Sequence record: NC_047884.1
Reading direction: 5' to 3' (one strand)
DNA length: 64,000 bases
From: Escherichia phage saus132
Shown here in pieces: positions 1-64,000 of this stretch. The notes below the pieces were generated by a model that had not been told where the DNA came from, ran no database searches, and saw only the letters and a program-made list of their open reading frames with translations. Each line of letters starts with the position of its first letter. The first letter of the stretch is position 1. The translations under genes were made by a program, and so were the position numbers.

Positions 1-1445
1 TAGATGAAGTATTGGCTCCTTATGTTCGTAAGTCTTACGATAAGAATCATGCGTTTGCAAAACGTTGGACTAAGGATGAAGCCAAAGCATCTGTAATGGC
101 TACGGAAATGACTGAGAAAGAAGTTTACGATGCCTGTCAAGGTCTAGAGTATGAAATCAATACGATGTTCAACTCTAATGGTCAGAGTCCATTTATTACC
201 TTTGGTTTTGGTCTAGGAACTTCCTGGGAAGCACGTCTTGTACAGAAAGCAATCTTAGAAGTGCGTATGGATGGTTTGGGTATCAATAAACGTACAGCTA
301 TCTTCCCTAAACTGGTATTTGTTTTGCGTGATGGCGTAAATATGAAACCTGGTGATGTTAACTATGATATCAAGAAGTTAGCTATGAAATGTACTGCTGA
401 ACGTATGTATCCTGACTACATCAGTTATGATAAGGTTGTAGAAGTTACGGGAGACTACAAAGTCTCTATGGGCTGTCGTTCATTCCTGGCTGCTGCGGAA
501 GATGGTGAAACTTCTGGTCGTAACAACTTAGGCGTTGTTTCCGTAAACCTTCCTCGAATCGCTATCGAAGCGGAAGGAAATATTGATCTATTCTTCGATC
601 TGCTTGAGCTGCGTGTGGATACCGCGTTAAAAGCATTGGAGTGGAGGGTTGATCGCTTAAAATACATCCAAGCTAAAGCTGCGCCCATCCTCTATATGTC
701 AGGAGCCTTTGGATTACGTCTGGGGCCAGATGAATATGTGTTTGATCATTTCTACAAGCGTGCTTCTGTATCTCTAGGATATATTGGTTGCCACGAAATG
801 TTGCAGCTCATGTTTGGTAAAGATGTAGATACAATGTCTGAGTCTTGTATCAAGTTCGTTCAACGTGTGCTACAATACATGCGTGATCGTGCTGATCAGA
901 AGAAGGAAGAGACTCAATTAGGGTATAGTCTGTATGCTACACCATCTGAATCTCTATGTGATCGCTTCTGTCGTCTAGATCGTGAGTATTTCCCAGAGCA
1001 TGAAGATATTCTGGCTAAAGGATATTACACTAACTCTCATCACCTTGATGTGGAGCGTAAGGTTGCTCCGAACGTGAAGTTCGATTATGAGTCTAACTTT
1101 ACCCCAATTGCTTCTGGTGGGTGCATTTCCTATGTGGAATTGCCTGATATGAAACGATTCCCAGATGCGCTGGAGTGGGTTATTAACTATGCTGCAAGTA
1201 AAGTTCATTACTTCGGTATTAATACTCCAGTAGACTCTTGTGGGGAATGTGGATTCTTGGGTGAAACTATAGCTTCTGAGGATGGTTTCAAATGCCCAAT
1301 TTGTGGCAACCATGATCCTGAGACTCTTGAGGTAACTCGTCGAGTTTGCGGATATCTTGGAAATCCAGGTGCTCGTCCATTTAACCCAGGTAAACAACAT
1401 GAGGTTATGGGTCGAGTGAAACATCAGGACATTCGCGCTAAATAA
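1..1445 (+). CDS. nrdD: Anaerobic ribonucleoside-triphosphate reductase (class III, NrdD), 5'-truncated by window edge
   Basis: Reading frame open from window start (ORF track 12..1445); C-terminal Cys4 zinc ribbon (CGECGF...CPICG) followed by glycyl-radical motif RRVCGYLG. Confidence 0.85.
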   Translation, partial: DEVLAPYVRKSYDKNHAFAKRWTKDEAKASVMATEMTEKEVYDACQGLEYEINTMFNSNGQSPFITFGFGLGTSWEARLVQKAILEVRMDGLGINKRTAIFPKLVFVLRDGVNMKPGDVNYDIKKLAMKCTAERMYPDYISYDKVVEVTGDYKVSMGCRSFLAAAEDGETSGRNNLGVVSVNLPRIAIEAEGNIDLFFDLLELRVDTALKALEWRVDRLKYIQAKAAPILYMSGAFGLRLGPDEYVFDHFYKRASVSLGYIGCHEMLQLMFGKDVDTMSESCIKFVQRVLQYMRDRADQKKEETQLGYSLYATPSESLCDRFCRLDREYFPEHEDILAKGYYTNSHHLDVERKVAPNVKFDYESNFTPIASGGCISYVELPDMKRFPDALEWVINYAASKVHYFGINTPVDSCGECGFLGETIASEDGFKCPICGNHDPETLEVTRRVCGYLGNPGARPFNPGKQHEVMGRVKHQDIRAK

Positions 1446-1450
1446 TGAAT

Positions 1451-1484
1451 CAGCCAGGTTGCTAGTCGACCTGGCTTTTATTTT
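1451..1484 (+). terminator. Rho-independent terminator after nrdD
   Basis: Hairpin CAGCCAGGT-loop-ACCTGGCTT followed by a T-rich run. Confidence 0.6.
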
Positions 1485-1486
1485 AT

Positions 1487-1515
1487 TTGCTTTCGAGCTA
1501 AAACTTAGGTATAAT
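1487..1515 (+). promoter_or_regulatory. Early sigma70-type promoter
   Basis: TTGCTT, 17 bp spacer, TATAAT; upstream TTTATTTGCTTTC resembles the PN25 -35 region; RBS AAGGAGGG before ATG 1533. Confidence 0.5.
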
Positions 1516-1532
1516 TGTACAAGGAGGGCTAA

Positions 1533-2219
1533 ATGGTACGAAGGAAGTTAGATAAAGACACTATCAATAAAGATTTAGAGCCTAGAAGAATTAAGCTAAT
1601 AAGTGAGTATTCTGGAATCCTTAATAAAGGCACATTCATATGTAGTGTAGGTCATACATGGGAAGCTACTGTTAATAATGTAAGGAATAGCAAATCTGGC
1701 TGTCCAATATGCGCAGGTACTTTTAAACTTACTAAAGATTCGGTAAATGAAGGGTTACGTAGTAGGGGTATTACTCTTATTGGAGAGTATAAAAATAATG
1801 CTACTAAAACTCTTTTTGAATGTGAGCATGGGCATAGGTGGGAAGCCACAGTAGGCAATGTAAAGAATAAAAATTCTGGGTGTCCTGTGTGCGATACTGA
1901 TTGGAATACCCCTGGTTTTATATACATTATGTGTAGTAGTATGGGAACTAAAATAGGAATTAGTATCTCTCCTGAAAGACGGTGGAAAGAGATAGTTAAA
2001 AGCTCCAATATACTAGATTTATATATTTTTGGTGTCTATTCAATAGATTCTGGTACCAAATCTAAAAGTAGGTCTATCGAGAAACAGACTCATGAATATT
2101 TTTCAGAATATAGATTAAAGTATACAGGATTTGCTGGATGTACTGAATTCTTTGATATATCTCCCATAGCCGTAGAAAAGCACTTAATTAATAATGGGTG
2201 TATAAAGGTAGAAAAATAA
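1533..2219 (+). CDS. Putative GIY-YIG-like (T5orf172-type) nuclease with two N-terminal zinc-ribbon repeats
   Basis: Duplicated HxWEATVxNV...SGCPxC repeat; C-terminal GFIYIM...KIGIS segment; very AT-rich island. Confidence 0.5.
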   Translation: MVRRKLDKDTINKDLEPRRIKLISEYSGILNKGTFICSVGHTWEATVNNVRNSKSGCPICAGTFKLTKDSVNEGLRSRGITLIGEYKNNATKTLFECEHGHRWEATVGNVKNKNSGCPVCDTDWNTPGFIYIMCSSMGTKIGISISPERRWKEIVKSSNILDLYIFGVYSIDSGTKSKSRSIEKQTHEYFSEYRLKYTGFAGCTEFFDISPIAVEKHLINNGCIKVEK

Positions 2220-2284
2220 ATAAAGTACTTGCTTATATTACTTTTATTTGATATTATATTATTATAAATTAGAGAGGAGGGTGT

Positions 2285-2644
2285 ATGAAATTAAAACCAT
2301 TTATTGTTGTATCTAAACTAGGGCATTATCACGTAGGAGTAGATACAATTCAGGAAGCTATTTTTGCTGCTACAGGTGATTACTCATTACTAGAAGGTAT
2401 TGGGTATCCTACATTACTAGGAGACTTCGTAGAGCAAGAACTAGATATTACTGTCTATAATCCTATATATGAAGAACCTGAAGACTTAAAAGAGACTCTA
2501 GAATTTGTATACTGGAACCACTTACAAGTATTTAATGTTACCTCTAATGGCACAGAGGATTTCTCTTCTGCTATTAAGTATTATATTAAACAAGTTTACT
2601 ATGATTATTTCTATGAGGATATTGGAGCGGAGCTAAAAGTATGA
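2285..2644 (+). CDS. Hypothetical protein
   Basis: ORF with strong RBS GAGAGGAGGG upstream. Confidence 0.6.
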   Translation: MKLKPFIVVSKLGHYHVGVDTIQEAIFAATGDYSLLEGIGYPTLLGDFVEQELDITVYNPIYEEPEDLKETLEFVYWNHLQVFNVTSNGTEDFSSAIKYYIKQVYYDYFYEDIGAELKV

Positions 2645-2844
2645 AAAACGTAAAACATCTTAAGTATCGCTTAATTTACAACGGACGTATGGAAATAGAA
2701 GATCTAGCTCAGCTAGCGATCAATTCAGATGAAGTTACAGTTCGTGCTTTGTCCATCGAGAAGCTGCGTGCTTCTTACGAAAATCGTATTATGGAATTAG
2801 AGGAGAAACTTTATGGCATTCTCGAGTCAGAAGCTACCAGGTGA
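2641..2844 (+). CDS. Hypothetical small protein
   Basis: ORF start overlaps upstream stop (ATGA). Confidence 0.45.
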   Translation: MKNVKHLKYRLIYNGRMEIEDLAQLAINSDEVTVRALSIEKLRASYENRIMELEEKLYGILESEATR

Positions 2845-3058
2845 AAATGTTAGTCTTATTGATCTGAATAAGCTCAATCAAGAGTTTCAGGGAGTTTTAA
2901 TGAAGCACTGGGAAACTGGTTATAAGGATGGTGTTGAATCCTGTGCTACTATGCTAGAAGTTCTTGCTGATAACCTAGTGGAGAAAGGCAATAAAGAATT
3001 AGCTGAGCTGTTAGACAGTATTGGGCAAAACTTTAGAGAACAGGTGAAAAATGCGTAG
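2813..3058 (+). CDS. Hypothetical small protein (start uncertain)
   Basis: ORF in operon context; no motif recognised. Confidence 0.4.
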   Translation: MAFSSQKLPGENVSLIDLNKLNQEFQGVLMKHWETGYKDGVESCATMLEVLADNLVEKGNKELAELLDSIGQNFREQVKNA

Positions 3059-3902
3059 ACTAATCGTTGTTAGTGGTGCAGGTTTGAGTGTAGATAGTGG
3101 TGTTCGTGCTTTCCGTACTGATACTGCTAGTGGGAAATCCTTGTGGGATGAGTACGATCTAGAGGAAGTATGTAGCTTGCCTAACTTTGAAGCTGGCTTC
3201 CGTCGCTTCTGTGGTGAAGATGATCCTAACTACTTCAGTGCTCGTTTCCCTGGCATTGATGAAGATGGTAACGATCTGTATCTCAAGACTCATGAGTTCT
3301 ACAACATGCGTCGTCAGGAATTACAGACTGTTGAGCCTAACATTGCCCATCTGCGAATTGCAGAATGGTTCCAGCGTTATGGTGCGGATAGCGTGAAGAA
3401 CTTCACTACTAACGTTGATGACCTTCTGGAGCGCGCTGGTATCCCTCGTGATGAAATCATCCATGCTCACGGATACTTGAAAGAGGTGATCTATCGTCGG
3501 GGTCGCAATCAAATCATCGAAGATGTTGGATACACTGCAATTGTTCCTGAAGATTACGAATGGGTAAAACCAAACGTGGTGTTCTTTGGTGAAACAGCTC
3601 CGTGGTACATGGGTCAGATCAACCTGTTTGATACGCTTACTAGCAATGATATGGTTATTGTGGTGGGTTGTAGCAACCAAGTTATCAACTTCAACTGGGA
3701 ATTATTCCCTGCTGTATGTCGTGGAACTAAGATGATGGTTGTTAACCCTCAAGTTCGTTATGATGAACAGCTTGAGTATGAGAAACGTGGTGTTACTGTA
3801 TGGCGGGCTGGAGCTGCCGAAGTTTTTGGTAACAAGAATTTCATTGGTCAAGTAGAAGCCTTTATGGAAGGAACTATTTATGCACCGCAAGAGCATGTGT
3901 GA
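3051..3902 (+). CDS. Sir2-family (sirtuin-like) NAD-dependent enzyme lacking the zinc-ribbon cysteines
   Basis: Motifs VVSGAGLSVDSGVRAFR (GAGxS), TTNVD, catalytic HG, VVFFGE, VVGCS; no CxxC pairs between HG and FGE. Confidence 0.7.
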   Translation: MRRLIVVSGAGLSVDSGVRAFRTDTASGKSLWDEYDLEEVCSLPNFEAGFRRFCGEDDPNYFSARFPGIDEDGNDLYLKTHEFYNMRRQELQTVEPNIAHLRIAEWFQRYGADSVKNFTTNVDDLLERAGIPRDEIIHAHGYLKEVIYRRGRNQIIEDVGYTAIVPEDYEWVKPNVVFFGETAPWYMGQINLFDTLTSNDMVIVVGCSNQVINFNWELFPAVCRGTKMMVVNPQVRYDEQLEYEKRGVTVWRAGAAEVFGNKNFIGQVEAFMEGTIYAPQEHV

Positions 3903-4042
3903 TCTTTTAGTATGGCCGGACGGTAGTTGGTGCTACCGTTTCGAATTTGCTACCGATGACTTCTCATGGAAGAGTGATGATTTCTGCGTTATCTATGAGG
4001 ATACAGCAGAATGGAAAGAGTTCCTTATTAAGGAGGGAGAAT

Positions 4043-4228
4043 ATGGTGAAGAAGATTTTTAAGGGTATCTGGAAGGGTCTAGTATGGTTTGTCAACCTAA
4101 TTGGTATGATTACCATTTATTCTCTGTTCCTATCTGTTATGTGGGGTAAAGGTGAGCTGAAGGTTCCGGTTCCTTTTACTGATGAAGTTAAAGTCTGGAC
4201 GTGGGATGCTACTGGTGGAAATAAGTAA
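4043..4228 (+). CDS. Small membrane protein (61 aa)
   Basis: Strong RBS AAGGAGGGAGA before ATG 4043; single hydrophobic helix VWFVNLIGMITIYSLFLSVMW. Confidence 0.4.
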   Translation: MVKKIFKGIWKGLVWFVNLIGMITIYSLFLSVMWGKGELKVPVPFTDEVKVWTWDATGGNK

Positions 4229-4721
4229 TACTCCTGTGATTTTCCTGGATATTGATGGGGTACTCAATTCGAGCATCTCTCACCATCATGCTCTAGACAG
4301 TGAAAAGCTGTTCTTTGGCAGTGATTGGGTTTATAAGCCATTACTCCAGGTTTTTCAGAACTTTCTTAAACCCTCCCCAATAATGATTGTTGGGGTCTCT
4401 TCATGGTTTTCTGTACGAAATGAAATGGAGAACGTTCAGATTATGACCGGACTCGGTTTGATCGATCGTTTCCTTGGTACAACAGATTTTACTGGAGGTG
4501 GTTTATATCGGGGTAATTCTGTTTTACGTTTCGTCGAAAAACATAAGCTCAAGCATTGGTGTGTCTTAGACGATGCTGGTGCTATGATGTATCAATTTCC
4601 TACTGTTATTGTAAATGGCAGGACTGGAGTAAACCTTCAAGATTTAAATGCTATAAGCTATATGCTGGAATTTAGTCCAGATCTTGAAATGTGTAAGGCT
4701 CTTCAGAAACTTAAGGTATAA
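4206..4721 (+). CDS. HAD-superfamily phosphatase-like protein (start uncertain)
   Basis: N-terminal FLDIDGVLN (DxDGx motif I), later VLDD motif. Confidence 0.5.
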   Translation: MLLVEISNTPVIFLDIDGVLNSSISHHHALDSEKLFFGSDWVYKPLLQVFQNFLKPSPIMIVGVSSWFSVRNEMENVQIMTGLGLIDRFLGTTDFTGGGLYRGNSVLRFVEKHKLKHWCVLDDAGAMMYQFPTVIVNGRTGVNLQDLNAISYMLEFSPDLEMCKALQKLKV

Positions 4722-4723
4722 GC

Positions 4724-5152
4724 ATGTTCAATAATATTTTCATGAAAGAGGTAAATCCTATGCTCCTCAACTTCTGGCGTTCTCTCCCTAATGGTATGTA
4801 TAATGAAACCATCAATCTGCTTAAGATTTGGTGTGAGAATAATGATATCTTCTTATCCTTTAAAGGCCCACTAGAGGAAGCTCCATGTATTGGAGTTAGT
4901 GTGGATTTAGGTGAGGGAGTAGAAGAGATTGTAGACTGGAAAGAACTCGATGAAATGGGTCTGGTTTTTGCCTTAAATCATAAGCTGTTTATGCCTGCAA
5001 ATCACCGTCTTATTGTAAATTATCGCACTGGTGAAGCTCCTGCTTTCCAGGTAAATGAACGTGAGGGCTGGTCATATTCGCCCGAGGAAGTAAATGAGGG
5101 GATTCAGAAACTTCGTCGTTTCGGGTATATGATCCCAGGTTTAACTGCTTAA
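4724..5152 (+). CDS. Hypothetical protein, paralog A of a tandem pair
   Basis: Shares MGLVFALN...P...TGE...PGL pattern with the next ORF. Confidence 0.6.
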   Translation: MFNNIFMKEVNPMLLNFWRSLPNGMYNETINLLKIWCENNDIFLSFKGPLEEAPCIGVSVDLGEGVEEIVDWKELDEMGLVFALNHKLFMPANHRLIVNYRTGEAPAFQVNEREGWSYSPEEVNEGIQKLRRFGYMIPGLTA

Positions 5153-5161
5153 GGAGGCAGA

Positions 5162-5557
5162 ATGGAACAAGTATTTTGGCGTCAGATAGATCCTAGTTTG
5201 GTAGAGCGTGCTGAGGGGCTCCTTGCACGTTGGTTGGGGGTTGACAAGGTTAGTGTAACATTTCCGTTTACTTCTGTAACAGACCCTAGTGTAGGTGTCT
5301 TTGTGGACGAAGATGAAGATGATGGTTGGGAAGCTGACTGGAATGAATTGTCCAGTATGGGCTTGATTGTTGCCCTCAACTTCTCTATATTCCATCCACG
5401 TGGCTTAGCCATTACACGTGACCCCGAAACTGGTGAATCCCCTTATCTTTTGCAAGTAGAAGATGATATTTGGGAGTACACCGAAGATATTCTCGAAGAA
5501 GCTAAAGGTCAATTAAATCGCATTGGGATCTATGTTCCAGGCCTAAATGATGATTGA
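5162..5557 (+). CDS. Hypothetical protein, paralog B of a tandem pair
   Basis: MGLIVALNFSIFHP...TGESPY...VPGL aligns with the preceding ORF. Confidence 0.6.
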   Translation: MEQVFWRQIDPSLVERAEGLLARWLGVDKVSVTFPFTSVTDPSVGVFVDEDEDDGWEADWNELSSMGLIVALNFSIFHPRGLAITRDPETGESPYLLQVEDDIWEYTEDILEEAKGQLNRIGIYVPGLNDD

Positions 5558-5648
5558 TTTTCATTAGTCCAATCCTGATTACCGAGTCATTTTGGCTCGG
5601 TTTTCTCTGTGCTCAAAGACACTGATAGCACCTTCGGAAAAATTTTAC

Positions 5649-5678
5649 TTGCAGGATGCTCAAAATCTTGATATAATA
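5649..5678 (+). promoter_or_regulatory. Early promoter with extended -10
   Basis: TTGCAG, 18 bp spacer, TGaTATAAT, followed by conserved ATTTATATTGAATTGAGAGA downstream block. Confidence 0.5.
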
Positions 5679-6173
5679 TTTATATTGAATTGAGAGACAT
5701 TAGTAAAAATTGATTTTGCTAATTTTTCTTGTTTACAATCCGCAATACGGAACAGTTAGGCTGCCCCATTAAGGGTTGTTTTAACTATTACTAGTGTTTA
5801 TACTGCATTAGTTAATTATCAATTAAGTGATCTGCGTACCCTGAATTCGGAAAGGTAAATCCAAACCGTGCATATTTAGCTCGTTATATAGGCAGAGCTT
5901 TATATGGGGGTGCGAACGAAAAGAGCAGCGAATGGTGACACGTCCAGTAGCCACCTACCAATAGGATAGTGAGGGCAATCAGAATCGGCTTAGCGGCCAA
6001 TGACCTAGGTTCTGATCTGGATAAGAGTTAAGAGAGCGCAGCACTGAGGTATGATAACTTATTCATACTGCTTGATGATGATTAATGTTTGTGTAAATGG
6101 TAGTAATAGTTGTTCTATTCTTTTGAATAGTCCTAAAGAAAGATATCCGAATAACCAACATAGGAGTATTGTT

Positions 6174-8963
6174 GTGTTCTCAATCCTACAAGGTCACGCA
6201 GGATTTTCCAGAGATAAAGCCACTGGCATCTGGAAAGAGATCAAAGTGGAAGACTACACCTTTGCAAAGCGATTCTCTAAAGAGCATCCAGAAGGTAAAC
6301 CAGCTTCCATGCCCTTCAAATTTGATGTACTTGAAGAACTTGACCCGCAAAACCTTGCTGAAATGTTACCTATCATGCGTCGTCTTACCAAAGACCCGCA
6401 TATTGTAGCTATTCGTGGTAAATGTTTAGCTCCAAAAGATAATGTGCGTCGTACCAGAGGAAACTTTAATGTATCCAATCCTAGTCATATTATTGCTATG
6501 GACGTGGATGGTATTGTAGATACTGGTGGCTATGACAAGTTTAATCTTGTCGGCATGGCACGTCATATTATTAAGATGTTGAATAGTATTAGTGAGGATA
6601 TGTTTCCTCTTGATGCAGGGTTTATTGCTCATGCATCGTCTTCGGCTGGCTTAAAACCAGGTATCCGAATGCACTTAATGCTAGAATCTAATGTCAAGGT
6701 AACGCAGGGGCAATTAAAATTCCTATTTACATCCATCAATGACAGTAGTAAGCAAAAGTATGGCTTTGATATTGCTGACTTAGCTTATTATTCTTCTGTT
6801 CAGCTTCACTATTTCGCAGATCCCTTATTTGATGATGGTATAGTCGATCCGTTTAAAGCGGAGAATAAACCACGTCTTGTGTATGTTAAGGGTTCGAAAG
6901 TGAATCTACCCAATAACCTAGTTGACTTTGAAACAACTAGAGGTGAGTTTAAAGAAGAATTCTACTCCTTACTTGACCAAATTAAAGGCAAGAAGGCTGC
7001 ATCTGATAAAGTGGAAGAAACCATCAGCGAACTAGAAGAAGCTGAGGATGGGGTGTACCTGCGTATTATCCCAAAACTTTATCACAGAGCGTTAGAAGAT
7101 GGTGTTGACTTTACGTGGTTAGAACGTGAGATTAAACCAGCTTTATCTGAGTATATTGCGACTAAAGATAATAGTCGTAATATTCAAGATTACTTTAATA
7201 ACGGTCGTAAGCAGGCTCTCAAAGCCTTTGTAAATAACTCCAAACGTGAGATTCCACCAAACTTAAAAGGTGTACCATTAAAACGTCTAGACACAGATTC
7301 TCCACCAGAAGTTCCATACCTGAAAATTAACATTGTACCACCAAAAGGACATTTAACATTTGTTAAGGCAAGTCTTGGTACGGGTAAAACTACAGCAGTA
7401 ACTAAGTGGCTAGATGCAGGTGTTCTTCCAGGGAACTTTATTGCAATCACAAATACTAGGGCACTTGTATCTTCTAACGCGAAGAAATTCGGTGCTGGCC
7501 AGTATGATAAGTCAGTTGATATGCTGAACTTCAAACGTGGTGCTATTGATCGTATGTCTTCAACTATTCACTCTATCCATAAGTTCAAGAGCTTTGTGGG
7601 TCAGATTGATACGATCTTTATTGATGAATGTGATGCAGTAATGAACGATCTGTTATTCGCTCCGGTTGTTAAAAACCGTCGTGAATGTATTCAGGTTCTT
7701 CGTGATATTCTTATTACTGCAAAAACGGTGATCTTATCTGATGGGGATATCAGTGCAGAAACGATTGAAGCCTATGGTTCTTTGATTGATTTTGATAAAC
7801 CGGTTGCGTTCTATAATCATCACCGTAAAATGCTGGCAAAAGCTCATGCTTATGAATTCCCTGACGAATCCAGTATTTGGGTTGCACTTCAAACATCTCT
7901 AGAGATGGGTGAGAAGTCAATCCTAGTATCTGACTGTGGACCAGATGAACTGAATGAAAAGGGAATGGCATTACGTCGTAATACGGGTGCGTTAGTTAAA
8001 GAAATTCACTCAAACTCTACGTCTGATGTAGATATCCGTCGTATTCTGGATTATACAACTAATGAGCTAATTGATCAACAGATTGATTGTTTGTTATGTA
8101 GTCCATCTGTAACGAGTGGTGTTGACTTTAACTATTTTGATAACGTATTCGTAATCACTAGAACCTCAAACCAAGCGCCAAACATGCGTTTTCAAGCAAT
8201 CAGGCGCGACCGTGGTGCTCAGAACATTTATTATTTTATTGATAAATCTACGAGTGGATTTTCTGCGGGTTCCGAGCAATATAATATTGACGAAGGTTGG
8301 ATTGAGTTAGCCCAACAACTGTACGCACGTCGCCGTGAGCTGGAATCTAGAAACTATACCAGTACTTTGCGTTATTATCTTCTCGATCAAGGTGCAACTA
8401 TCGATATTTTCAGCGAAAGCTGGGGAACTATCGAAGGTGCAGGCAAAGAGTATATAGAAGAGCGAATCAAAGCTATTTTGCACTCAACTCCTGAATATTG
8501 CGCACCACGTCATGCAGACGCCTATGAAGCCAAGTTACTTCTGGTTCGCTATTATCATCTGGATTCTATTAAAGATGTAATAGTGGAACACGTTGAACAG
8601 TATATTAAGGATAAACCAAACGATAGAGCTGCATTCTTCCATAAGATGCACGACATGTTCTGGGAAGATATTAAAAAGTGTTCAAACGTAACAATCAAAC
8701 CGTTTATCGAAGCTCTTAAGAATAAGAAGAAGGATTTCTTCCTTAAGACAGGTCAGAGCGCTAACCCAAAATATGCTCGTATGTATCTTGGCATGATGGG
8801 TATCGGTAAAGATCTGGATACGGAAAAGATTGTGGACTGGTACAGAACTTACTGTAAGATCGAATGTATGCCGATTCCAGTTAAGTTTATGACAGATGAA
8901 GAACGTCAGATGCATGAGGAAGCTCTTGCTGAATTGGGGGCTAGAAATGACAGCGAAGAATAA
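6174..8963 (+). CDS. Putative replication initiator / origin-binding-type helicase-like ATPase
   Basis: Walker A SLGTGKTT, Walker B FIDECD; start placed at GTG 6174 (RBS AGGAG 7 nt upstream) instead of track start 6051. Confidence 0.6.
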   Translation: MFSILQGHAGFSRDKATGIWKEIKVEDYTFAKRFSKEHPEGKPASMPFKFDVLEELDPQNLAEMLPIMRRLTKDPHIVAIRGKCLAPKDNVRRTRGNFNVSNPSHIIAMDVDGIVDTGGYDKFNLVGMARHIIKMLNSISEDMFPLDAGFIAHASSSAGLKPGIRMHLMLESNVKVTQGQLKFLFTSINDSSKQKYGFDIADLAYYSSVQLHYFADPLFDDGIVDPFKAENKPRLVYVKGSKVNLPNNLVDFETTRGEFKEEFYSLLDQIKGKKAASDKVEETISELEEAEDGVYLRIIPKLYHRALEDGVDFTWLEREIKPALSEYIATKDNSRNIQDYFNNGRKQALKAFVNNSKREIPPNLKGVPLKRLDTDSPPEVPYLKINIVPPKGHLTFVKASLGTGKTTAVTKWLDAGVLPGNFIAITNTRALVSSNAKKFGAGQYDKSVDMLNFKRGAIDRMSSTIHSIHKFKSFVGQIDTIFIDECDAVMNDLLFAPVVKNRRECIQVLRDILITAKTVILSDGDISAETIEAYGSLIDFDKPVAFYNHHRKMLAKAHAYEFPDESSIWVALQTSLEMGEKSILVSDCGPDELNEKGMALRRNTGALVKEIHSNSTSDVDIRRILDYTTNELIDQQIDCLLCSPSVTSGVDFNYFDNVFVITRTSNQAPNMRFQAIRRDRGAQNIYYFIDKSTSGFSAGSEQYNIDEGWIELAQQLYARRRELESRNYTSTLRYYLLDQGATIDIFSESWGTIEGAGKEYIEERIKAILHSTPEYCAPRHADAYEAKLLLVRYYHLDSIKDVIVEHVEQYIKDKPNDRAAFFHKMHDMFWEDIKKCSNVTIKPFIEALKNKKKDFFLKTGQSANPKYARMYLGMMGIGKDLDTEKIVDWYRTYCKIECMPIPVKFMTDEERQMHEEALAELGARNDSEE

Positions 8964-9248: not shown

Positions 9249-9953
9249 ATGGCTGGTTCTCGTAGAAAGAAACTTATCCATGAAATCCCTGATGAAACCT
9301 TTAAAAAGGTTATTGAACATCTAGAGAATGGTGGTACTAAGAAAGCAGCATGTGAAATGCTCGGCGTTTCTTCTAACCCAACTATGGAACGAATGATCGA
9401 GGAATGGAGAGATCGTCAGGTTCAAGTTGCGGAAATGAAAAAGAAGAAGCGCGGAACACTGATTGAAGGTGTTGAGCTTGCAAACGTAATTGAACAGTAT
9501 CTTTCTGGTGATTCTTTTGAAGAAATCGCTGATCGTAATTATCGTTCTGTAGCGATGATTAAATCTGTTCTAGAACGTTACGGTGCTCTGCTTCGTTTAA
9601 ATGATACTGTTGATCCATTGAATCCTCCATTGATTCCTGATGATGCAATGGCAGAGGAATTTGAAGTTGGTGAACTTGTTTGGGTTCCTGGCTATCAGTG
9701 TATTGGTGAAATCAAGAAAGCAATGACTAACCCAGTTGGTTGCTATCGTGTTTGGTTGTTATCAGAAGGTAAACAACAGAACGTTCACTATATGCACTAC
9801 GAATTAGCTTCTGTTAAACATCTGGAAAAGCTGGGAGTTGATGTTAAAGCTCTTGGCTTTAAATGGAGCCGTGAAGAAGTTATCACGTTGGTTAATGAAG
9901 CTGTTAAAGCTGCACTGAAACTCGATAAAGAGAAAGGAAAACGCCGTGAGTAA
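9249..9953 (+). CDS. Putative DNA-binding protein (N-terminal HTH)
   Basis: GGTKKAACEMLGVSSNPTMERMIEEW helix-turn-helix-like segment; directly downstream of PN25-like promoter. Confidence 0.55.
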   Translation: MAGSRRKKLIHEIPDETFKKVIEHLENGGTKKAACEMLGVSSNPTMERMIEEWRDRQVQVAEMKKKKRGTLIEGVELANVIEQYLSGDSFEEIADRNYRSVAMIKSVLERYGALLRLNDTVDPLNPPLIPDDAMAEEFEVGELVWVPGYQCIGEIKKAMTNPVGCYRVWLLSEGKQQNVHYMHYELASVKHLEKLGVDVKALGFKWSREEVITLVNEAVKAALKLDKEKGKRRE

Positions 9954-60257: not shown

Positions 60258-60749
60258 TTGAGATCCTCCAAAGCATATAAACCATCCCCATCATTGCAGA
60301 TTATTACCGCTTCCGAATGATTAGCATAGTATTCATTTGCAGTCTTTACCCATTGTTCGATTTTTTCGATAGTGTCGTGGGTAGCTGGATGATCGTTAAA
60401 TATTATTGTCATATCGTCGATTCCTTATAATGTATAAGTTTACCGCCGATAGGCTTTAAGATGTTCCCTAGTTTTTAAAGAGCATGGCGGTAAACTTCCC
60501 CGCCGTGTAGTTCGTCATTGCCGCCCTACGTGATAAATATTAGGGGAATACCGAAAAGGGCGCAACCATATTTTTGTAAAGAAACGTAAAGACAAACGCC
60601 ACCGCACCACGTCCAGCGGCGCACTAAATTTAATGAAACGGGCGCGCGAATAACACCAAAACAACCATTTTAGCAAGTAATTTTTTCATTTATATCTGCT
60701 CTAGGGTACTTGACAAAATCTAAAATCCTCGTGGTGAGGTTTTCTCGGT

Positions 60750-60830
60750 GTGCCCCTTATGGTTGCCTATCTTTTCCTTTGAGGCGCTTAGAATGCGTTA
60801 CAGAGCGTTTTAGACCCTGTTAATAACTTA
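60750..60830 (+). repeat. Direct repeat copy 1 (core TTAGAATGCGTTACAGAGCGTTTTAGA)
   Basis: 27-bp core at 60786-60812 identical to 63363-63389, degenerate similarity on both flanks. Confidence 0.85.
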
Positions 60831-60859
60831 TACAAAAAGCAAAAATGAAATTTAATGAG

Positions 60860-61201
60860 TTATCCACTTGATTTTTCAAAAAAGTATTTTCTGCTATTAT
60901 TTTTCATTGACAAATAAGTTTAGACGTGCATTGATTGGTTAGCAGACTAACAATCGCTAGGATGATAATCACGCTGGTGGATTGTAACAGCTGAAACAGT
61001 TAGCAGACTATTAATACTCTAAAAACCTATTAGCCAACTAACTATTTCATATTATATAATATACTTATAAATTAAAGAGAAATAATAACTATAAGAAACT
61101 ATCGGCTAAGTGAGAACCACTATCATTTAGGTTATTCACAAAGTTATCCACAGCACAAAATAACTTGACGCAATAGGCGACGTTTTGGCGACTTATCCAC
61201 A
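60860..61201. promoter_or_regulatory. Cluster of DnaA-box-like 9-mers
   Basis: TTATCCACT at 60860; TTATCCACA at 61144 and 61193; weaker GGTGGATTG at 60976. Confidence 0.6.
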
Positions 61202-61247
61202 GACTTATATACAGGTTATCCTACTGTATAAATATACAGGGTAGAAT
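61192..61247. repeat. Left arm of long inverted repeat (contains DnaA box and palindrome CTGTATAAATATACAG)
   Basis: About 90 percent identical to reverse complement of 63418-63472. Confidence 0.85.
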
Positions 61248-61519
61248 GGTAGCAGTAACAACCGCAATCAAATTTAAGCGGCCTAGAACACGCTATACGG
61301 CGTTTTCTCACTGCTACCCTTATTATAATAAAGCCTTGTGTACGCTTACAGAGAACTAGAAATAGAAAACGCGCGGCAATGGAAGCGGCAATGTTGGAAA
61401 TGGTACAAAGTTTCAATATTGCTGAAATGATCGATGAAATGGTAAAAGGTATTGACATTTCAACCTTTACCCAAAATGCTGAAAGCGAGTAATAATTAGT
61501 CTAATGTAAAGTTTTGTAA

Positions 61520-61546
61520 AGGTCGCCCTAATCGGCGGCCTTTTTT
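61520..61546 (+). terminator. Terminator-like hairpin
   Basis: GGTCGCC-ctaatc-GGCGGCC followed by TTTTTT. Confidence 0.45.
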
Positions 61547-61548
61547 GT

Positions 61549-61554
61549 TATAAT
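61549..61554 (+). promoter_or_regulatory. Extended -10 promoter element
   Basis: TGtTATAAT followed by RBS TAGGAGG and ATG 61612. Confidence 0.4.
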
Positions 61555-61611
61555 GCCTTTACACCGAAACGGTGGATTGAAAATTTTCCCCTGATTTCTA
61601 GGAGGCGTTAA

Positions 61612-61839
61612 ATGGTACATTCATCATCTTCTGCAATTTTTAACGGTATGGAATGGGTATCCGTTCCCGCTATTGTCAGCGTTATGGTTTCTGAGTTCGG
61701 CATAGGTAAAACTTATGTTACCATTCAGGGGCTTTACGACAATGACAAGATTGACCAGCAAACCGCCGGATTTTTGCTGGATGAATTGAAAGCTAACCAT
61801 TGCACTAAAAAGCAAGCGGCAAAAATTGTTTTAATGTAA
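61612..61839 (+). CDS. Hypothetical small protein
   Basis: RBS context ATTTCTAGGAGG. Confidence 0.55.
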   Translation: MVHSSSSAIFNGMEWVSVPAIVSVMVSEFGIGKTYVTIQGLYDNDKIDQQTAGFLLDELKANHCTKKQAAKIVLM

Positions 61840-61885
61840 TTATTAAAGGGGATATATTATCCCCTAATTTCTAGGAGCTAATAAA

Positions 61886-62035
61886 ATGGTTATTTTTCGA
61901 TCTATTCTGGCTAGTATCTTGGGCGCTATTTTATCGTTGTTTGCAATAGCTTTCGGTGTTCATGCCGTTATTATCGGAGCAGGTATCGCGGGGTTTTCTT
62001 ACTTGTTAGGCTGTATGACTGGTAAAGGGGAATAA
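61886..62035 (+). CDS. Small membrane peptide (49 aa, below ORF-track size cutoff)
   Basis: RBS context ATTTCTAGGAG; hydrophobic ILASILGAILSLFAIAFGVHAVIIGAGIAGF. Confidence 0.4.
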   Translation: MVIFRSILASILGAILSLFAIAFGVHAVIIGAGIAGFSYLLGCMTGKGE

Positions 62036-62037
62036 AA

Positions 62038-62250
62038 ATGTTAAAGAATGTTTCCCTTGCCCGTTCCAAAGGTTTTAAGCTGGTGGATGTTAACACGTTC
62101 GAGCGTCCAGATTGTAAAATTGAATATGTAGCACGCAACAAAAACGCTTTCCGTGTCACTGAAAAGAAATTTGACAAGCGCGGCAATTTGGTAGCCGAAA
62201 CGGTTAAACACTTTGCCACTTTTTACGCTGCATTTCGTGGGGTATTATGA
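62038..62250 (+). CDS. Hypothetical small protein
   Basis: ORF in tightly packed operon. Confidence 0.5.
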   Translation: MLKNVSLARSKGFKLVDVNTFERPDCKIEYVARNKNAFRVTEKKFDKRGNLVAETVKHFATFYAAFRGVL

Positions 62251-62387
62251 AAACTTTATTTTCTATTTTGCTCGGTGCTGCTGGTGGCTTTATTGCTACC
62301 TGCTTTAAAAGTGATCCTGCACTGTTAGGCGTTTATTCGATTTGTTTTGGCTATTTGCTAGGGAGGCTGGCAGATGGTTATTTATGA
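62247..62387 (+). CDS. Small membrane peptide (46 aa, below ORF-track size cutoff)
   Basis: MKTLFSILLGAAGGFIATCF...; start overlaps upstream stop. Confidence 0.35.
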   Translation: MKTLFSILLGAAGGFIATCFKSDPALLGVYSICFGYLLGRLADGYL

Positions 62388-62718
62388 GGGCAATCGCTTT
62401 GTTACTAATTGCCGTCCGGCATTATTAGCAAACTATTTAAACCAGCTTTCACCAGTTTATAAAGGCGTAATTAATATCTATGAGGGCAAAGCACATTATA
62501 AGATTAATGCCATTGTTGCCCGTGAACTAGCGTTTCAATTTTTAACTTTTGGATCTTGTGACGTTCAGGTTATGGGGGAAGCGTTAATAGCAGAAAATGA
62601 AAATGAATTTATCGACATTTTCCGCAAAGTATGTACAGAGCGCCTGATTATGAAAGGCGCGTATATTCAATCAACCGCTGAAAGTATAGAAACAGCGTTT
62701 CGAAAGGTGGCGCAATGA
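62374..62718 (+). CDS. Hypothetical protein
   Basis: ORF in operon. Confidence 0.55.
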   Translation: MVIYEGNRFVTNCRPALLANYLNQLSPVYKGVINIYEGKAHYKINAIVARELAFQFLTFGSCDVQVMGEALIAENENEFIDIFRKVCTERLIMKGAYIQSTAESIETAFRKVAQ

Positions 62719-62912
62719 CTAAAGATGAAGCACTAGAAAAAATGAAACAAGGTTTCAAAGTTCGTCAAGAATACTTCACTAGTGAGGAATTTTTGTACAT
62801 GAAAAATGGCGTGATCATGTCAGAAGATGGATATACTTTTAATGACTGGTTTTTCAAGATTACCCCTGCTACACGTTGGAAGCTAGACGGTTGGAGCGTC
62901 TACCGTGAATAG
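62715..62912 (+). CDS. Hypothetical small protein
   Basis: ORF overlapping upstream stop (ATGA). Confidence 0.5.
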   Translation: MTKDEALEKMKQGFKVRQEYFTSEEFLYMKNGVIMSEDGYTFNDWFFKITPATRWKLDGWSVYRE

Positions 62913-63035
62913 CTGGTGGCGAAAAACACAAAGCCATAAATCTAATAATACCGCTGGGAAACATTCCCAGCGTTTACGATTTAGTAGCGGGCTTGTAATG
63001 GTAATAATAATCATTCTCATTCTAGGAGCGATGGC

Positions 63036-63275
63036 ATGGCTGTAAGAATTTTACGATATGTGGAACGTAAAGAAACCGATATTATGCAACATCATTTAAC
63101 TGATGCGCAATACGCGCAATTTTTAGAAATGCAGAAAAGCGGAGCTGATACGGCAACGCTAGGAGCGTGGATCAACTCAGTTTCAACGTGTACGCATTTT
63201 GATTCATACGGGTATACGCCAGCCGAAACCGTCCAGATCTTTGATGACTACGAGAAAGAATACATAGCAGACTAA
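63036..63275 (+). CDS. Hypothetical small protein
   Basis: RBS TCTAGGAGCGATGGC-ATG; followed by terminator. Confidence 0.55.
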   Translation: MAVRILRYVERKETDIMQHHLTDAQYAQFLEMQKSGADTATLGAWINSVSTCTHFDSYGYTPAETVQIFDDYEKEYIAD

Positions 63276-63281
63276 TAATAA

Positions 63282-63309
63282 CGGGGCGCAACTATCGGCC
63301 CCGCTTTTT
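63282..63309 (+). terminator. Rho-independent terminator
   Basis: CGGGGC-gcaactatcg-GCCCCG followed by CTTTTT. Confidence 0.6.
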
Positions 63310-63324
63310 CTGGCCTTCCTCAAA

Positions 63325-63405
63325 TTTCCCCTTATTAAAATACCTCCTCCAAAAATAAACGCGTTAGAATGCGTTACAGAGCGTTTTAGAGCTATATTAG
63401 AGTTA
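63325..63405 (+). repeat. Direct repeat copy 2 (core TTAGAATGCGTTACAGAGCGTTTTAGA)
   Basis: 27-bp core at 63363-63389 identical to 60786-60812. Confidence 0.85.
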
Positions 63406-63417
63406 TTCACTACGCAG

Positions 63418-63472
63418 GAATACTGTATAAATATACAGTAGAATAACCTGTTGATAAGTCTGTGGATAACGC
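63418..63472. repeat. Right arm of long inverted repeat (contains DnaA box TGTGGATAA and palindrome)
   Basis: Reverse complement matches 61192-61247 at about 90 percent; further GGTGGATAA at 63522. Confidence 0.85.
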
Positions 63473-63562
63473 CTCAAAATCGCTAGGATTTTGTCAAGTC
63501 AAATCGTGCTGTTAATAAACCGGTGGATAACTTAAATAACAGTGTTTCTCACTTCGCTTTGT

Positions 63563-63706
63563 AAATGCGAGTCACTCTCATTATCATTCGCGTTTCCCTT
63601 CCTAAATGCAAATCATTCTCATTCGTATTCCGGTAGTCAAATGATAACTATTCTCATTCGCATTCAACTTCTCAAATGCGAATCAATCTCATTATCATTT
63701 GCATTT
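63563..63706 (+). repeat. Iteron array 1: four tandem ~36-bp units each containing an inverted pair AAATGCGAAT...ATTCGCATTT
   Basis: Units start at 63563, 63604, 63639, 63674. Confidence 0.8.
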
Positions 63707-63743
63707 CGGCAGGCAGGGCATTTTCTATTTGCCCTGCGCTTTT

Positions 63744-63966
63744 GTGCAAATCCGACATTTGCCCCCACGGATTACGTGCCAGCGTGCATGTGCGAATCCG
63801 ACAATTTTTGGTAGTGTGCAAATCCGATGGCAAATATTTTTTATATGTGCGAATCCGACAATGAATTTTCCTAAAAACTCCAGCAATCCGCAACTGCGAT
63901 GCAATCCAGCTGGGTTTACTAGAGTATGTGCAAATTCGACAAGTGTTAAGGTGTGCGAATCCGACA
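63744..63966 (+). repeat. Iteron array 2: six same-orientation copies of GTGCRAATYCGAYR (array may continue beyond window)
   Basis: Copies at 63744, 63790, 63816, 63847, 63929, 63953; shares core TGCGAATC with array 1; perfect hairpin GCAGGGC/GCCCTGC at 63713-63737 between arrays. Confidence 0.8.
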
Positions 63967-64000
63967 AGATTTTTGTGACTTCGATGAGAGGGTGTGTGAT

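What the first reader, a model, noticed from the sequence alone, without database searches (positions are those of the whole stretch)
60786..63389. Exact 27-bp direct repeat about 2.6 kb apart
TTAGAATGCGTTACAGAGCGTTTTAGA occurs at 60786-60812 and 63363-63389, with degenerate similarity extending into both flanks (a CCCCTTA-containing block upstream). Copy 2 sits 30 bp from the right inverted-repeat arm. It could be a recombination footprint or a repeated protein-binding site.
Basis: seen in the sequence. Interest (0 to 1): 0.4.

Follow-up and report, generated by a model that had tools for sequence, protein, structure and literature searches.

The report
Conserved phased DNA element, T5-like phage
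The exact 27-bp repeat is the core of a small conserved non-coding DNA signal in the first-injected end of a T5-like phage, and the same signal sits beside plasmid replication origins, so it is probably a docking site for a host protein, with DNA gyrase the leading but unproven candidate.

Summary
The repeat is real: TTAGAATGCGTTACAGAGCGTTTTAGA lies at 60788-60814 and 63364-63390, 1-2 nt from the reported coordinates, and nowhere else in the 122-kb genome. The window is the right 64 kb of a T5-like phage (100% to chee130_1), and both copies lie in the pre-early terminal repeat. The 27-mer consists of three 10-bp units (GCGTTNNAGR). Copy 1 is the homologue of T5's annotated inverted repeat B. 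A degenerate inverted copy (T5 IRB') lies at 61282-61309. Copy 2 is an unannotated third member, always starting 59 bp left of the LexA-box-like palindrome of IRD'. The element is conserved across Demerecviridae as far as Vibrio phages. Near-identical copies (28/29 nt) also lie next to the DnaA boxes of iteron plasmid origins (IncX1, IncX4, pSC101-like), where pSC101 has its gyrase-binding par locus. It is the only sequence these plasmids share with the phage repeat. It is not a promoter, a terminator, a known RNA or a simple recombination scar. The best reading is a cis-acting host-factor site. The leading candidate is a wrapped arm of a strong gyrase site, and the main rival is an unidentified sequence-specific protein. 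Function is inferred, not shown.

The parts
60785..60814 (+). Copy 1 of the element: CGC followed by the 27-mer, read as units GCGCTTAGAAT / GCGTTACAGA / GCGTTTTAGA. It is the homologue of T5 'inverted repeat B' in Repeat Region 1.
   Evidence: Alignment with T5 and 26 other T5-like loci. It matches an IncX4 plasmid at 28 of 29 nt.
63352..63390 (+). Copy 2 of the element: an A-tract (AAAATAAA), then CGCG, then the 27-mer. It is an unannotated third family member, and its 27-mer starts 59 bp left of palD/IRD'.
   Evidence: the 59-bp distance is the same in every T5-like locus where both features were found. Searches show the plasmid matches extend over the A-tract.
61282..61309 (-). B', a degenerate inverted copy (reverse complement GAGAAAACGCCGTATAGCGTGTTCTAGG). 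It is the homologue of T5 'inverted repeat B'' to the right of IRD.
   Evidence: In relatives this position reads CGTTAGAAAGCGTTTTAGGCCGCTTAAAA.
60753..60760 (+). CCCCTTAT block upstream of copy 1. It lies at the centre of the S/W gyrase-consensus peak at 60760.
63328..63335 (+). CCCCTTAT block upstream of copy 2, within CCCCTTATTAAAATACCTCC. It lies at the centre of the S/W gyrase-consensus peak at 63336.
61105..61239 (.). Left arm of the 135-nt inverted repeat (IRC-spacer-IRD). It carries consensus DnaA boxes at 61132, 61144 and 61193 and ends in palD.
   Evidence: (I1), and the Davison preprint.
63423..63557 (.). Right arm of the inverted repeat (IRD'-spacer-IRC'), with a DnaA box at 63461-63469.
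   Evidence: (I1).
61222..61241 (.). palD, a LexA-box-like palindrome matching the LexA consensus at 17 of 20 positions.
63421..63440 (.). palD', a LexA-box-like palindrome (TACTGTATAAATATACAGTA) matching the consensus at 19 of 20 positions. In distant relatives the element abuts this palindrome directly.
63283..63305 (+). Intrinsic-terminator-like hairpin (GGGGCGCAACTATCGGCCCCGCTTTTT) ending the rightward pre-early operon, upstream of copy 2. It corresponds to T5 palindrome C.
   Evidence: Read from the sequence and compared with the T5 annotation. The consensus scan did not list it.

Best explanation
Shown: The window is the right 64 kb of a T5-like phage (Epseptimavirus). Both copies lie in the terminal repeat that carries the pre-early, first-step-transfer genes. 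The 27-mer is the core of a roughly 40-bp cis element made of an A-tract, CGC and three helically phased 10-bp units (GCGTTNNAGR). The element occurs three times per repeat, in orientation +, -, +. Copy 1 corresponds to T5 IRB, the inverted copy to T5 IRB', and copy 2 is an unannotated member beside IRD'. All three flank the DnaA-box and LexA-box inverted repeats of the proposed injection-stop region. The element is conserved across Demerecviridae. The same element stands beside iteron plasmid origins, at the position of pSC101 par.

Inferred: Plasmids of 4-7 kb that encode only Rep and Mob functions carry the element. T5-like phages, which share no other sequence with those plasmids, carry it too. 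It is therefore read by a host component and not by a phage protein. The most likely candidate is DNA gyrase. In this reading the phased GCG/AT-rich units form the arm that wraps on the GyrA C-terminal domain in a strong gyrase site, as in pSC101 par and the Mu strong gyrase site. Gyrase would then introduce negative supercoils into the newly entered DNA domains bounded by the DnaA-box clusters, which would support pre-early promoter activity and possibly the stop and restart of transfer.

The exact identity of the two copies reflects purifying selection on a near-consensus site. Short-patch gene conversion may have contributed.
For: Identity and context:
- The region is 100% identical to MF431736, and the terminal repeat is annotated at 1-8717.
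- T5 IRB, IRB' and the copy-2 homologue were read directly from the T5 sequence.

Conservation:
- Copy 2 starts 59 bp from palD in every T5-like locus where both were found.
- The element is present in IME260, My1, Serratia Kamaji, a Proteus phage and Vibrio phage D252. The Vibrio copy matches at 20 of 27 nt although its A2 protein is only 43% identical.
- An unbiased blastn of the non-coding repeat against distant phages returns the element as one of a few conserved islands.

Plasmid link:
- A 45-nt query matched 1241 of 5426 E. coli genomes and 1445 PLSDB plasmids, always in intergenic DNA.
- I read copies in IncX4, in IncX1 (two direct copies 189 bp apart), in two pSC101-like MOBQ plasmids and in a chromosomal island.
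- In the plasmid origins read, the order is always rep, iterons, AT-rich DNA, DnaA box, about 250-350 bp, then the element.
- The element of the small plasmids aligns to the pSC101 par PRb repeat.
- The element is the only similarity between the 8.7-kb phage repeat and these loci.

Gyrase link:
- pSC101 par is a specific gyrase-binding site that raises superhelicity at the origin (PMC5043065, PMC4041236).
- The published gyrase motif has arms with roughly 10.5-bp G/C periodicity that wrap on the GyrA C-terminal domain (PMC6379681).
- I built an S/W scorer from the published 133-bp consensus. It ranks the Mu strong gyrase site third in the Mu genome.
- The same scorer gives peaks 41 bp left of both window copies (z 3.9 and 3.4). 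The same geometry appears in IncX1, IncX4, Leclercia and a Vibrio contig. Ten of 28 elements reach z of 3 or more, against 1.5% expected.
- For 10-11-bp G/C periodicity the two copies rank in the top 0.06-0.3% of the window, depending on window length. PRb is the strongest position in all of pSC101.
Against: - No binding data exist for any protein on this element.
- The real Topo-Seq matrix was not available. My scorer sees only the G/C pattern, and it places pSC101 par only eighth in that plasmid.
- The gyrase-like score is near background for My1, the Proteus phage and Vibrio phage D252. It is modest for T5 itself, at z 0.7-2.3 at the expected offset.
- Left arms and centres score weakly.
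- Wrapping on the GyrA C-terminal domain is not base-specific. Conservation of exact bases such as TYAGAAY..GCG..TTTTAG from Vibrio phages to IncX plasmids fits a sequence-specific reader better.
- Direct similarity between the 27-mer and pSC101 PRb is weak. The link runs through intermediate plasmids.
- The T5 deletion mutant lacking hegG through 017 is viable with small plaques. If that deletion is contiguous, IRB' and IRC-IRD are dispensable. I did not see its exact endpoints.
Confidence: 0.35

Rival explanations
1. The element is the operator-like binding site of an unidentified sequence-specific DNA-binding protein of the host, conserved in Gammaproteobacteria. Three subunits or domains would bind the three 10-bp direct repeats on one face of the helix. 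The protein would act together with DnaA and/or LexA bound next to it. Gyrase binding would be incidental or absent.
For: - Exact bases, and not only the G/C pattern, are conserved from Vibrio phage D252 to IncX plasmids.
- The outer units are nearly invariant across T5-like phages.
- The element abuts a LexA-box-like palindrome within 2-5 nt in My1, Kamaji, the Proteus phage and the Vibrio phage. It lies near DnaA boxes in both phages and plasmids.
- The gyrase-like score is not universal.
Against: - Only 1241 of 5426 E. coli genomes hold a match, so no comparable site was detected in the core chromosome. That is unusual for a host regulator, although blastn would miss short degenerate sites.
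- From memory, no known E. coli factor consensus fitted. I compared IHF, Fis, Lrp, ArcA, OmpR, CpxR, PhoP, Tus, XerCD and boxA.
- No paper in the held library contains the sequence.
Confidence: 0.3
2. The element is the binding site of a conserved phage pre-early protein. The candidate is the DNA-binding dimer A2, alone or with A1. It would be used to release the injection stop or to shut off pre-early transcription.
For: - A2 and A1 are the conserved essential pre-early proteins, A2 binds double-stranded DNA, and A1 associates with RNA polymerase and dampens pre-early promoters.
- The element is confined to the pre-early repeat within the phage genome.
- The A2 model is a small helical protein with weak resemblance to helix-turn-helix domains.
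Against: - Near-identical elements occur on small plasmids and IncX plasmids. A2 homologues were found only on T5-like phage contigs.
- The fold search gave no significant hit.
- No specificity data exist for A2.
Confidence: 0.1
3. The identity is only a footprint of recent intragenomic recombination or gene conversion between two ancient repeat copies. The 27-mer itself has no present function.
For: - Identity stops abruptly at both ends of the 27-mer.
- Close relatives have copy 1 differing at GCG versus CGC, and in one also C to T, so the window lineage may have been converted by copy 2.
- The number of units varies between phages, and one genome has a 34-bp deletion.
Against: - The limits of identity coincide with the limits of the element conserved in distant phages and plasmids.
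- Position and orientation relative to palD are fixed.
- In most genomes copies 1 and 2 differ from each other, so there is no general concerted evolution.
Confidence: 0.07
4. The element is a transcription signal: a promoter, an UP element, a terminator or part of a small RNA.
For: - Unit 1 contains TAGAAT, a good -10 hexamer.
- Copy 2 follows a terminator, and copy 1 lies about 100 bp upstream of a putative leftward promoter read from the sequence.
Against: - No acceptable -35 lies at the right distance in any copy.
- The scan finds no promoter on the element. The only terminator-like hit (63375-63358, minus strand) is a weak 5-bp stem overlapping its edge.
- No Rfam family matched the element. 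The only two sub-threshold hits lie at about 61500-61560, away from it.
- The 27-mer has no self-complementarity.
- Its contexts in plasmids are not consistent with a promoter.
Confidence: 0.03

Closest known systems
T5 left-terminal-repeat 'inverted repeat B / B'' (annotation of AY587007; Repeat Regions 1 and 2 of Davison, bioRxiv 10.1101/866236)
   Same: The position is the same: between the leftward pre-early operon and IRC for copy 1, and right of IRD for B'. The GCGTTTTAGR core is shared. The literature assigns no function.
   Different: In T5 the pair is annotated only as a 26-bp inverted repeat. The third, direct copy left of IRD' is not annotated. I did not find the three-unit 10-bp substructure or the plasmid relatives in the papers I could read. 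In this phage copies 1 and 2 are identical and B' has decayed, whereas in T5 it is B and B' that are alike.
pSC101 par locus (partition-related repeats; specific gyrase-binding site)
   Same: It is cis-acting and non-coding, and it lies a few hundred bp from the DnaA box of an iteron origin. In pSC101-like plasmids the element occupies the position of the par PRb repeat. PRb is the most strongly 10-11-bp phased DNA in pSC101. Both have two direct copies and one inverted copy.
   Different: pSC101 itself has only a degenerate version that is 18 nt shorter. The par repeats lie within about 100 bp of each other, whereas the phage copies are 0.5-2.6 kb apart. Gyrase binding has been shown for par but not for this element.
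Strong gyrase site of phage Mu
   Same: It is an intergenic cis element on a phage. Its function depends on an anisotropically flexible, phased right arm (PMC6379681). The right-arm S/W scores are similar: 21 for Mu against 19-25 for the element.
   Different: There is no sequence homology. Mu has one central site that organises a prophage domain. Here there are three sites per terminal repeat on injected linear DNA.
oriC-like DnaA-box clusters proposed as the T5 injection-stop signal (Davison model)
   Same: The element flanks exactly these clusters, in phages and in plasmids.
   Different: The element is not a DnaA box and is not part of the published model.

Membership tests
T5-type terminal-repeat element IRB/IRB' | Lies in the non-coding Repeat Region 1 between the leftward pre-early operon and IRC, with an inverted partner to the right of IRD. 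| tested here: met
   The alignment of the copy-1 region with T5 and 26 other T5-like loci places copy 1 at T5 IRB. B' at 61282-61309 aligns with T5 IRB'.
T5-type terminal-repeat element IRB/IRB' | Shares the sequence core (T/C)AGAA(A/T)GCG...GCGTTTTAGR. | tested here: met
Strong gyrase site (Mu SGS / pSC101 par type) | A motif of about 130 bp with arms of roughly 10.5-bp G/C periodicity flanking a cleavage centre. | tested here: inconclusive
   Only the published consensus was available, not the matrix. Peaks of z 3.9 and 3.4 lie 41 bp left of both copies, and 10 of 28 elements reach z of 3 or more. Left arms and centres are weak, and three distant phages show no signal.
Strong gyrase site (Mu SGS / pSC101 par type) | Preferential gyrase binding and quinolone-induced cleavage. 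| not testable with these tools
   Needs EMSA, a cleavage assay or Topo-Seq.
Strong gyrase site (Mu SGS / pSC101 par type) | Positional homology to pSC101 par next to an iteron origin. | tested here: met
   Met for the plasmid copies. For the phage copies the link is only the shared element of about 40 bp.
Sigma-70 promoter or intrinsic terminator | -35 and -10 hexamers at 16-18 bp spacing, or a GC-rich hairpin followed by a T-run. | tested here: not met
   No promoter hit on the element, and only one weak 5-bp terminator-like stem at its edge.
Plasmid iterons (Rep-binding repeats) | Tandem repeats bound by a cognate Rep protein encoded nearby. | tested here: not met
   Plasmids with different Rep proteins and different iterons share the element, and the phage has no Rep gene.
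DnaA box | TT(A/T)TNCACA. | tested here: not met
   The consensus boxes lie at 61132, 61144, 61193 and 63461. None falls within the 27-mer.
Known RNA family (Rfam 15) | A covariance-model match. | tested here: not met
   Only two sub-threshold hits, both at about 61500-61560 and none on the element.
G4-type primase site (ssi) | Similarity to the phage G4 complementary-strand origin. | tested here: not met
   I read G4 3860-4040 and saw no resemblance.

The most novel reading that the evidence does not exclude
A roughly 40-bp phased 'entry element' is shared by T5-like phages, IncX and pSC101-like plasmids and genomic islands across Gammaproteobacteria. It recruits a host machine, either gyrase or an undiscovered factor acting with DnaA and LexA, to DNA that has just entered the cell. 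In T5 it would be a working part of the long-unexplained two-step injection control. It would set up supercoiled, membrane-anchored domains of first-step-transfer DNA.
Probability: 0.25. Interest if true: 0.8.

Novelty: new variant of a known kind. Interest (0 to 1): 0.55.

Why it matters
How T5 stops and restarts DNA injection has been open for about sixty years. The repeat-rich non-coding DNA of the pre-early region is its suspected cis signal, yet no experimental study of these repeats exists (PMC10644984). One of these repeats turns out to be a discrete, family-wide element that also marks the par-like side of plasmid origins. This gives a concrete and cheap hypothesis to test: gyrase or another host factor binding to a 40-bp site. 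It also ties phage entry to plasmid maintenance biology. If the gyrase reading holds, it would explain how linear first-step DNA becomes a good template for its very strong promoters. It would also supply a portable supercoiling element for vectors.

Tried and rejected
- **Promoter and terminator scan:** nothing convincing on the element.
- **Rfam at a permissive E-value:** nothing on the element.
- **Pfam and PHROGs on ten pre-early proteins:** no sequence-specific regulator found apart from the A2 'DNA binding protein' family.
- **A2 structure model and PDB fold search:** no significant hit, only weak resemblance to helix-turn-helix domains.
- **Sequence search of A2 against solved structures:** nothing.
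- **Exact 27-mer in IMG/VR:** a single contig, a close relative.
- **Degenerate two-unit pattern in IMG/VR:** 120 or more mostly chance hits, uninformative.
- **G4-type primase site:** no resemblance.
- **Literature search for the sequence string:** no paper.
- **Literature link between T5 and LexA boxes:** none found.
- **Papers not held in the library:** Davison 2015, Wahle and Kornberg 1988, Conley and Cohen 1995, Constantinou 1986.
- **Topo-Seq position matrix (Table DS10):** cut from the stored supplement, so I used only a crude G/C-class scorer built from the published consensus.
- **Compared from memory and rejected:** Tus/Ter, XerCD sites, IHF, Fis, Lrp, ArcA, OmpR, CpxR, PhoP, boxA, RfaH ops and type I restriction sites. 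None fits the conserved positions.
- **Test for concerted evolution of copies 1 and 2 across genomes:** no general pattern.
Full report
**1. The observation**

- The 27-mer TTAGAATGCGTTACAGAGCGTTTTAGA occurs exactly twice on the + strand, at 60788-60814 and 63364-63390. The copies are 2576 bp apart.
- No shuffled sequence gave two matches, even with three mismatches allowed.
- The upstream CCCCTTAT block is real (60753-60760 and 63328-63335). A 1-nt indel separates it from the 27-mer.
- Copy 2 ends 32 nt before the right arm of a 135-nt inverted repeat (61105-61239 and 63423-63557).

**2. Where this is**

- The region is 100% identical to five 'T5-like' phage genomes, for example MF431736 chee130_1 (Epseptimavirus). 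It is 93-95% identical across most of its length to the closest of the hundreds of other related Salmonella and Escherichia phages.
- The window is genome positions 57987-121986. Its last 8717 nt are the right terminal repeat, which is identical to the left one.
- This repeat carries the pre-early genes (dmp, A1, A2 and others) that enter the cell in the first step of T5's two-step DNA transfer.
- The 27-mer, and looser versions of it, are absent from the remaining roughly 105 kb of unique sequence. The genome therefore holds two copies per repeat and none elsewhere.

**3. Anatomy**

- The 27-mer reads as three tandem 10-bp units, GCGTTAGAAT / GCGTTACAGA / GCGTTTTAGA. Copy 1 has one extra C in the first unit.
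- In T5 (AY587007) the position of copy 1 is the annotated 'inverted repeat B' (TCAGAAAGCGTTTTAGGCGGC). Its partner B' lies to the right of inverted repeat D.
- The window has the B' homologue at 61282-61309 on the minus strand, and it is degenerate.
- The homologue of copy 2 in T5 is TTAGAATGCGATCTAGGACGTTTTAGG at 9273. It is not annotated.
- Each terminal repeat therefore has three family members in orientation +, -, +. B' and copy 2 are the decayed inner extensions of the large inverted repeat IRC-spacer-IRD / IRD'-spacer-IRC'. Copy 1 is followed directly by a DnaA-box-like sequence.

**4. Conservation in phages**

- In 37 IMG/VR loci, copy 2 always starts 59 bp left of the palindrome palD (CTGTATAAATATACAG) wherever both features were found. 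Its outer units are nearly invariant and its middle unit is variable.
- Copy 1 exists in several forms that differ in the number of units. The form in this window also occurs in Klebsiella phage IME260, so it is probably ancestral.
- The element is present in other subfamilies:
  - My1 has TTAGAATGCGTTTTAGAGCGTTTTAGC.
  - Serratia phage Kamaji and a Proteus phage also carry it.
  - Vibrio phage D252 has TTAGAATCGCTTACAGGGCTTTTCAGG, a 20 of 27 match, although its A2 protein is only 43% identical.
- In these distant phages it abuts a palD-like palindrome within 2-5 nt, always with the same end proximal.
- A blastn of the whole non-coding region against these phages returns the element as one of a few conserved islands.
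- Copies 1 and 2 usually differ from each other within a genome, so there is no general concerted evolution. Two close relatives differ from this phage in copy 1 at GCG versus CGC, one of them also at a C-to-T change. A short conversion patch from copy 2 is therefore possible here.

**5. What it is not**

- Consensus scans place no promoter on the element, and only one weak 5-bp terminator-like stem at its edge.
- No Rfam family matches it.
- It is not a DnaA box.
- It does not resemble the G4 primase site.
- The papers I could read describe the T5 repeats but assign no function to IRB. They also state that experiments on these repeats are lacking.
- A T5 mutant lacking hegG through 017 is viable with small plaques. 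IRB' and IRC-IRD are therefore probably dispensable, although I did not see the deletion endpoints.

**6. The element is not phage-specific**

- A 45-nt query around copy 2 matched 1241 of 5426 complete E. coli genomes, with 1352 places on plasmids and 1005 on chromosomes. It also matched 1445 PLSDB plasmids. All listed matches but two were intergenic.
- Copies I read directly:

| Replicon | Sequence |
|---|---|
| IncX4 | CGCTTAGAACGCGTTACAGAGCGTTTTAGG (28 of 29 with copy 1) |
| IncX1, copy A | CGCTCAGAATGCGATACAGCGCGTTTTAGA |
| IncX1, copy B (189 bp downstream of A, same orientation) | CGCTCAGAACGCGTTACAGAGCGTTTTAAG |
| Two pSC101-like MOBQ plasmids (4.4 and 6.9 kb) | element present |
| Chromosomal island beside yecN | element present |

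- A degenerate scan of one genome per species added Leclercia, Rheinheimera, Vibrio and Arsenophonus.
- In the plasmid origins I read, the order is always rep gene, iterons, AT-rich DNA, DnaA box(es), about 250-350 bp, then the element.
- Between the 8.7-kb phage repeat and these loci, the element with its A-tract is the only significant similarity.
- Small plasmids that encode only Rep and Mob functions carry it, and A2 homologues occur only in T5-like phages.

**7. Link to pSC101 par and gyrase**

- The small plasmids have the same gene order as pSC101: traD, non-coding stretch, DnaA box, iterons, repA. Their element aligns with the PRb repeat of the pSC101 par locus, which is a shorter and degenerate version.
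- par is a specific gyrase-binding site that raises negative superhelicity at the origin (PMC5043065, PMC4041236).
- The genome-wide gyrase motif is about 130 bp. Its two arms show roughly 10.5-bp G/C periodicity and wrap on the GyrA C-terminal domain. Mu SGS and pSC101 par score highly on it (PMC6379681).
- The matrix itself was not held, so I scored G/C class against the published 133-bp consensus.
  - This places the Mu site third in the Mu genome, 2 nt from the annotated cut. It places a par peak eighth in pSC101.
  - In the window it gives peaks at 60760 (z 3.9, eighth of 64,000 positions) and 63336 (z 3.4). Each lies 41 bp left of a copy, over the CCCCTTAT blocks, and most of the score comes from the right arm, that is, from the element.
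  - The same geometry recurs in IncX1, IncX4, IME260 copy 1, Leclercia and a Vibrio contig. Ten of 28 elements reach z of 3 or more, against 1.5% expected.
  - My1, the Proteus phage and Vibrio phage D252 show nothing, and T5 shows little.
- A model-free test of 10-11-bp G/C periodicity gave the following:
  - The two copies rank in the top 0.06-0.3% of the window, depending on window length.
  - PRb ranks first in pSC101.
  - The Mu right arm ranks in the top 0.5%.

**8. Interpretation**

- Shown: a real, discrete, strongly conserved cis element belonging to T5's IRB family. It has three phased units, it is tied to DnaA-box and LexA-box clusters, and it is shared with par-like regions of iteron plasmids.
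- Inferred: it is read by a host component.
- I rank gyrase first. In this reading the element is the wrapped arm of a strong gyrase site that supercoils newly entered DNA domains. The reasons are the par homology, the phasing and the recurrent geometry.
- The conservation of exact bases and the lack of signal in some phages keep an unidentified sequence-specific factor almost as likely.
- Binding by phage A2/A1, a pure recombination scar and a transcription signal are less likely, for the reasons given under the rival explanations.
- From memory only, because the paper is not held: host gyrase is required for T5 growth (Constantinou et al. 1986, cited).

**9. Novelty**

- IRB and IRB' are already annotated in T5, so the repeat as such is known.
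- I did not find the following in the accessible literature: the third copy, the 10-bp unit structure, the family-wide coupling to a near-perfect LexA box, and above all the shared identity with plasmid par-like elements. Davison's 2015 paper could not be read.

Noticed in passing
window 63421-63440 and 61222-61241: T5 'palindrome D' is a near-perfect LexA SOS box. It matches TACTGTATATATATACAGTA at 19 of 20 and 17 of 20 positions. It is conserved as far as Vibrio, Proteus and Serratia T5-like phages. The Davison preprint does not mention LexA, and no held paper links T5 with LexA boxes.
   Followed up: partly
window 12883, 14208, 23581, 60973, 62079, 62280, 62912: There are seven Chi sites (GCTGGTGG) on the + strand and none on the - strand. 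Four of them fall within 2 kb of the pre-early repeat. In this orientation they would act on RecBCD entering from the right genome end.
   Followed up: no
window 61379-61492 (+): The annotated 37-aa ORF matches only the last 37 residues of the 336-aa family DUF7566 (E = 1e-14). It looks like the remnant of a larger pre-early gene that was deleted just to the right of B'.
   Followed up: no
window 63743-63972: Five or more iteron-like repeats TGTGCGAATCCGACA (T5 'direct repeat D') lie close to the right end of the terminal repeat. They are conserved in Kamaji, My1 and IME260. Together with the DnaA boxes, the whole stretch resembles a plasmid origin.
   Followed up: no
window 63546-63710: Repeats AAATGCGAATCATTCTCATTATCATT (T5 DRC/DRE) show a modest resemblance to the Fur box, 14 of 19. 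Stronger Fur-like matches (16 of 19) lie at 63000 and 55402.
   Followed up: partly
window 59951, 59850, 58152: Three of the ten best G/C-class matches to the gyrase consensus in the 64-kb window lie in the A1-A2 part of the terminal repeat, in addition to the one at copy 1. The scorer is crude.
   Followed up: no
L020 (IMGVR_UViG_2974606035), copy-2 region: One T5-like genome has a 34-bp deletion that removes the first unit and part of the second unit of copy 2. If that phage is viable, this part of the element is not strictly essential.
   Followed up: no
window about 60690-60721, minus strand: A putative leftward promoter TTGTCA-16-TATAAA is conserved in T5. It lies about 100 bp from copy 1 and is followed by an unannotated 19-codon ORF (MKKLLAKMVVLVLFARPFH). 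Both were read from the sequence.
   Followed up: no
L167 (E. coli EC261 chromosome, island beside yecN) 2960-5480: A non-coding stretch of about 2.5 kb is full of short repeats (ctatacag, ttacagag, ttaacag). It carries the element with about 36 nt of extended similarity to copy 2. The nature of the island is unknown.
   Followed up: no
L168 2800-2870 and L166 2300-2370 (IncX1 and IncX4 plasmids): A stretch closely resembling the ColE1/pBR322 primosome-assembly region (ttccgcttcctcgctcact...ggctgcggcgagcgg) lies between the DnaA boxes and the element. I recognised it from memory only.
   Followed up: no
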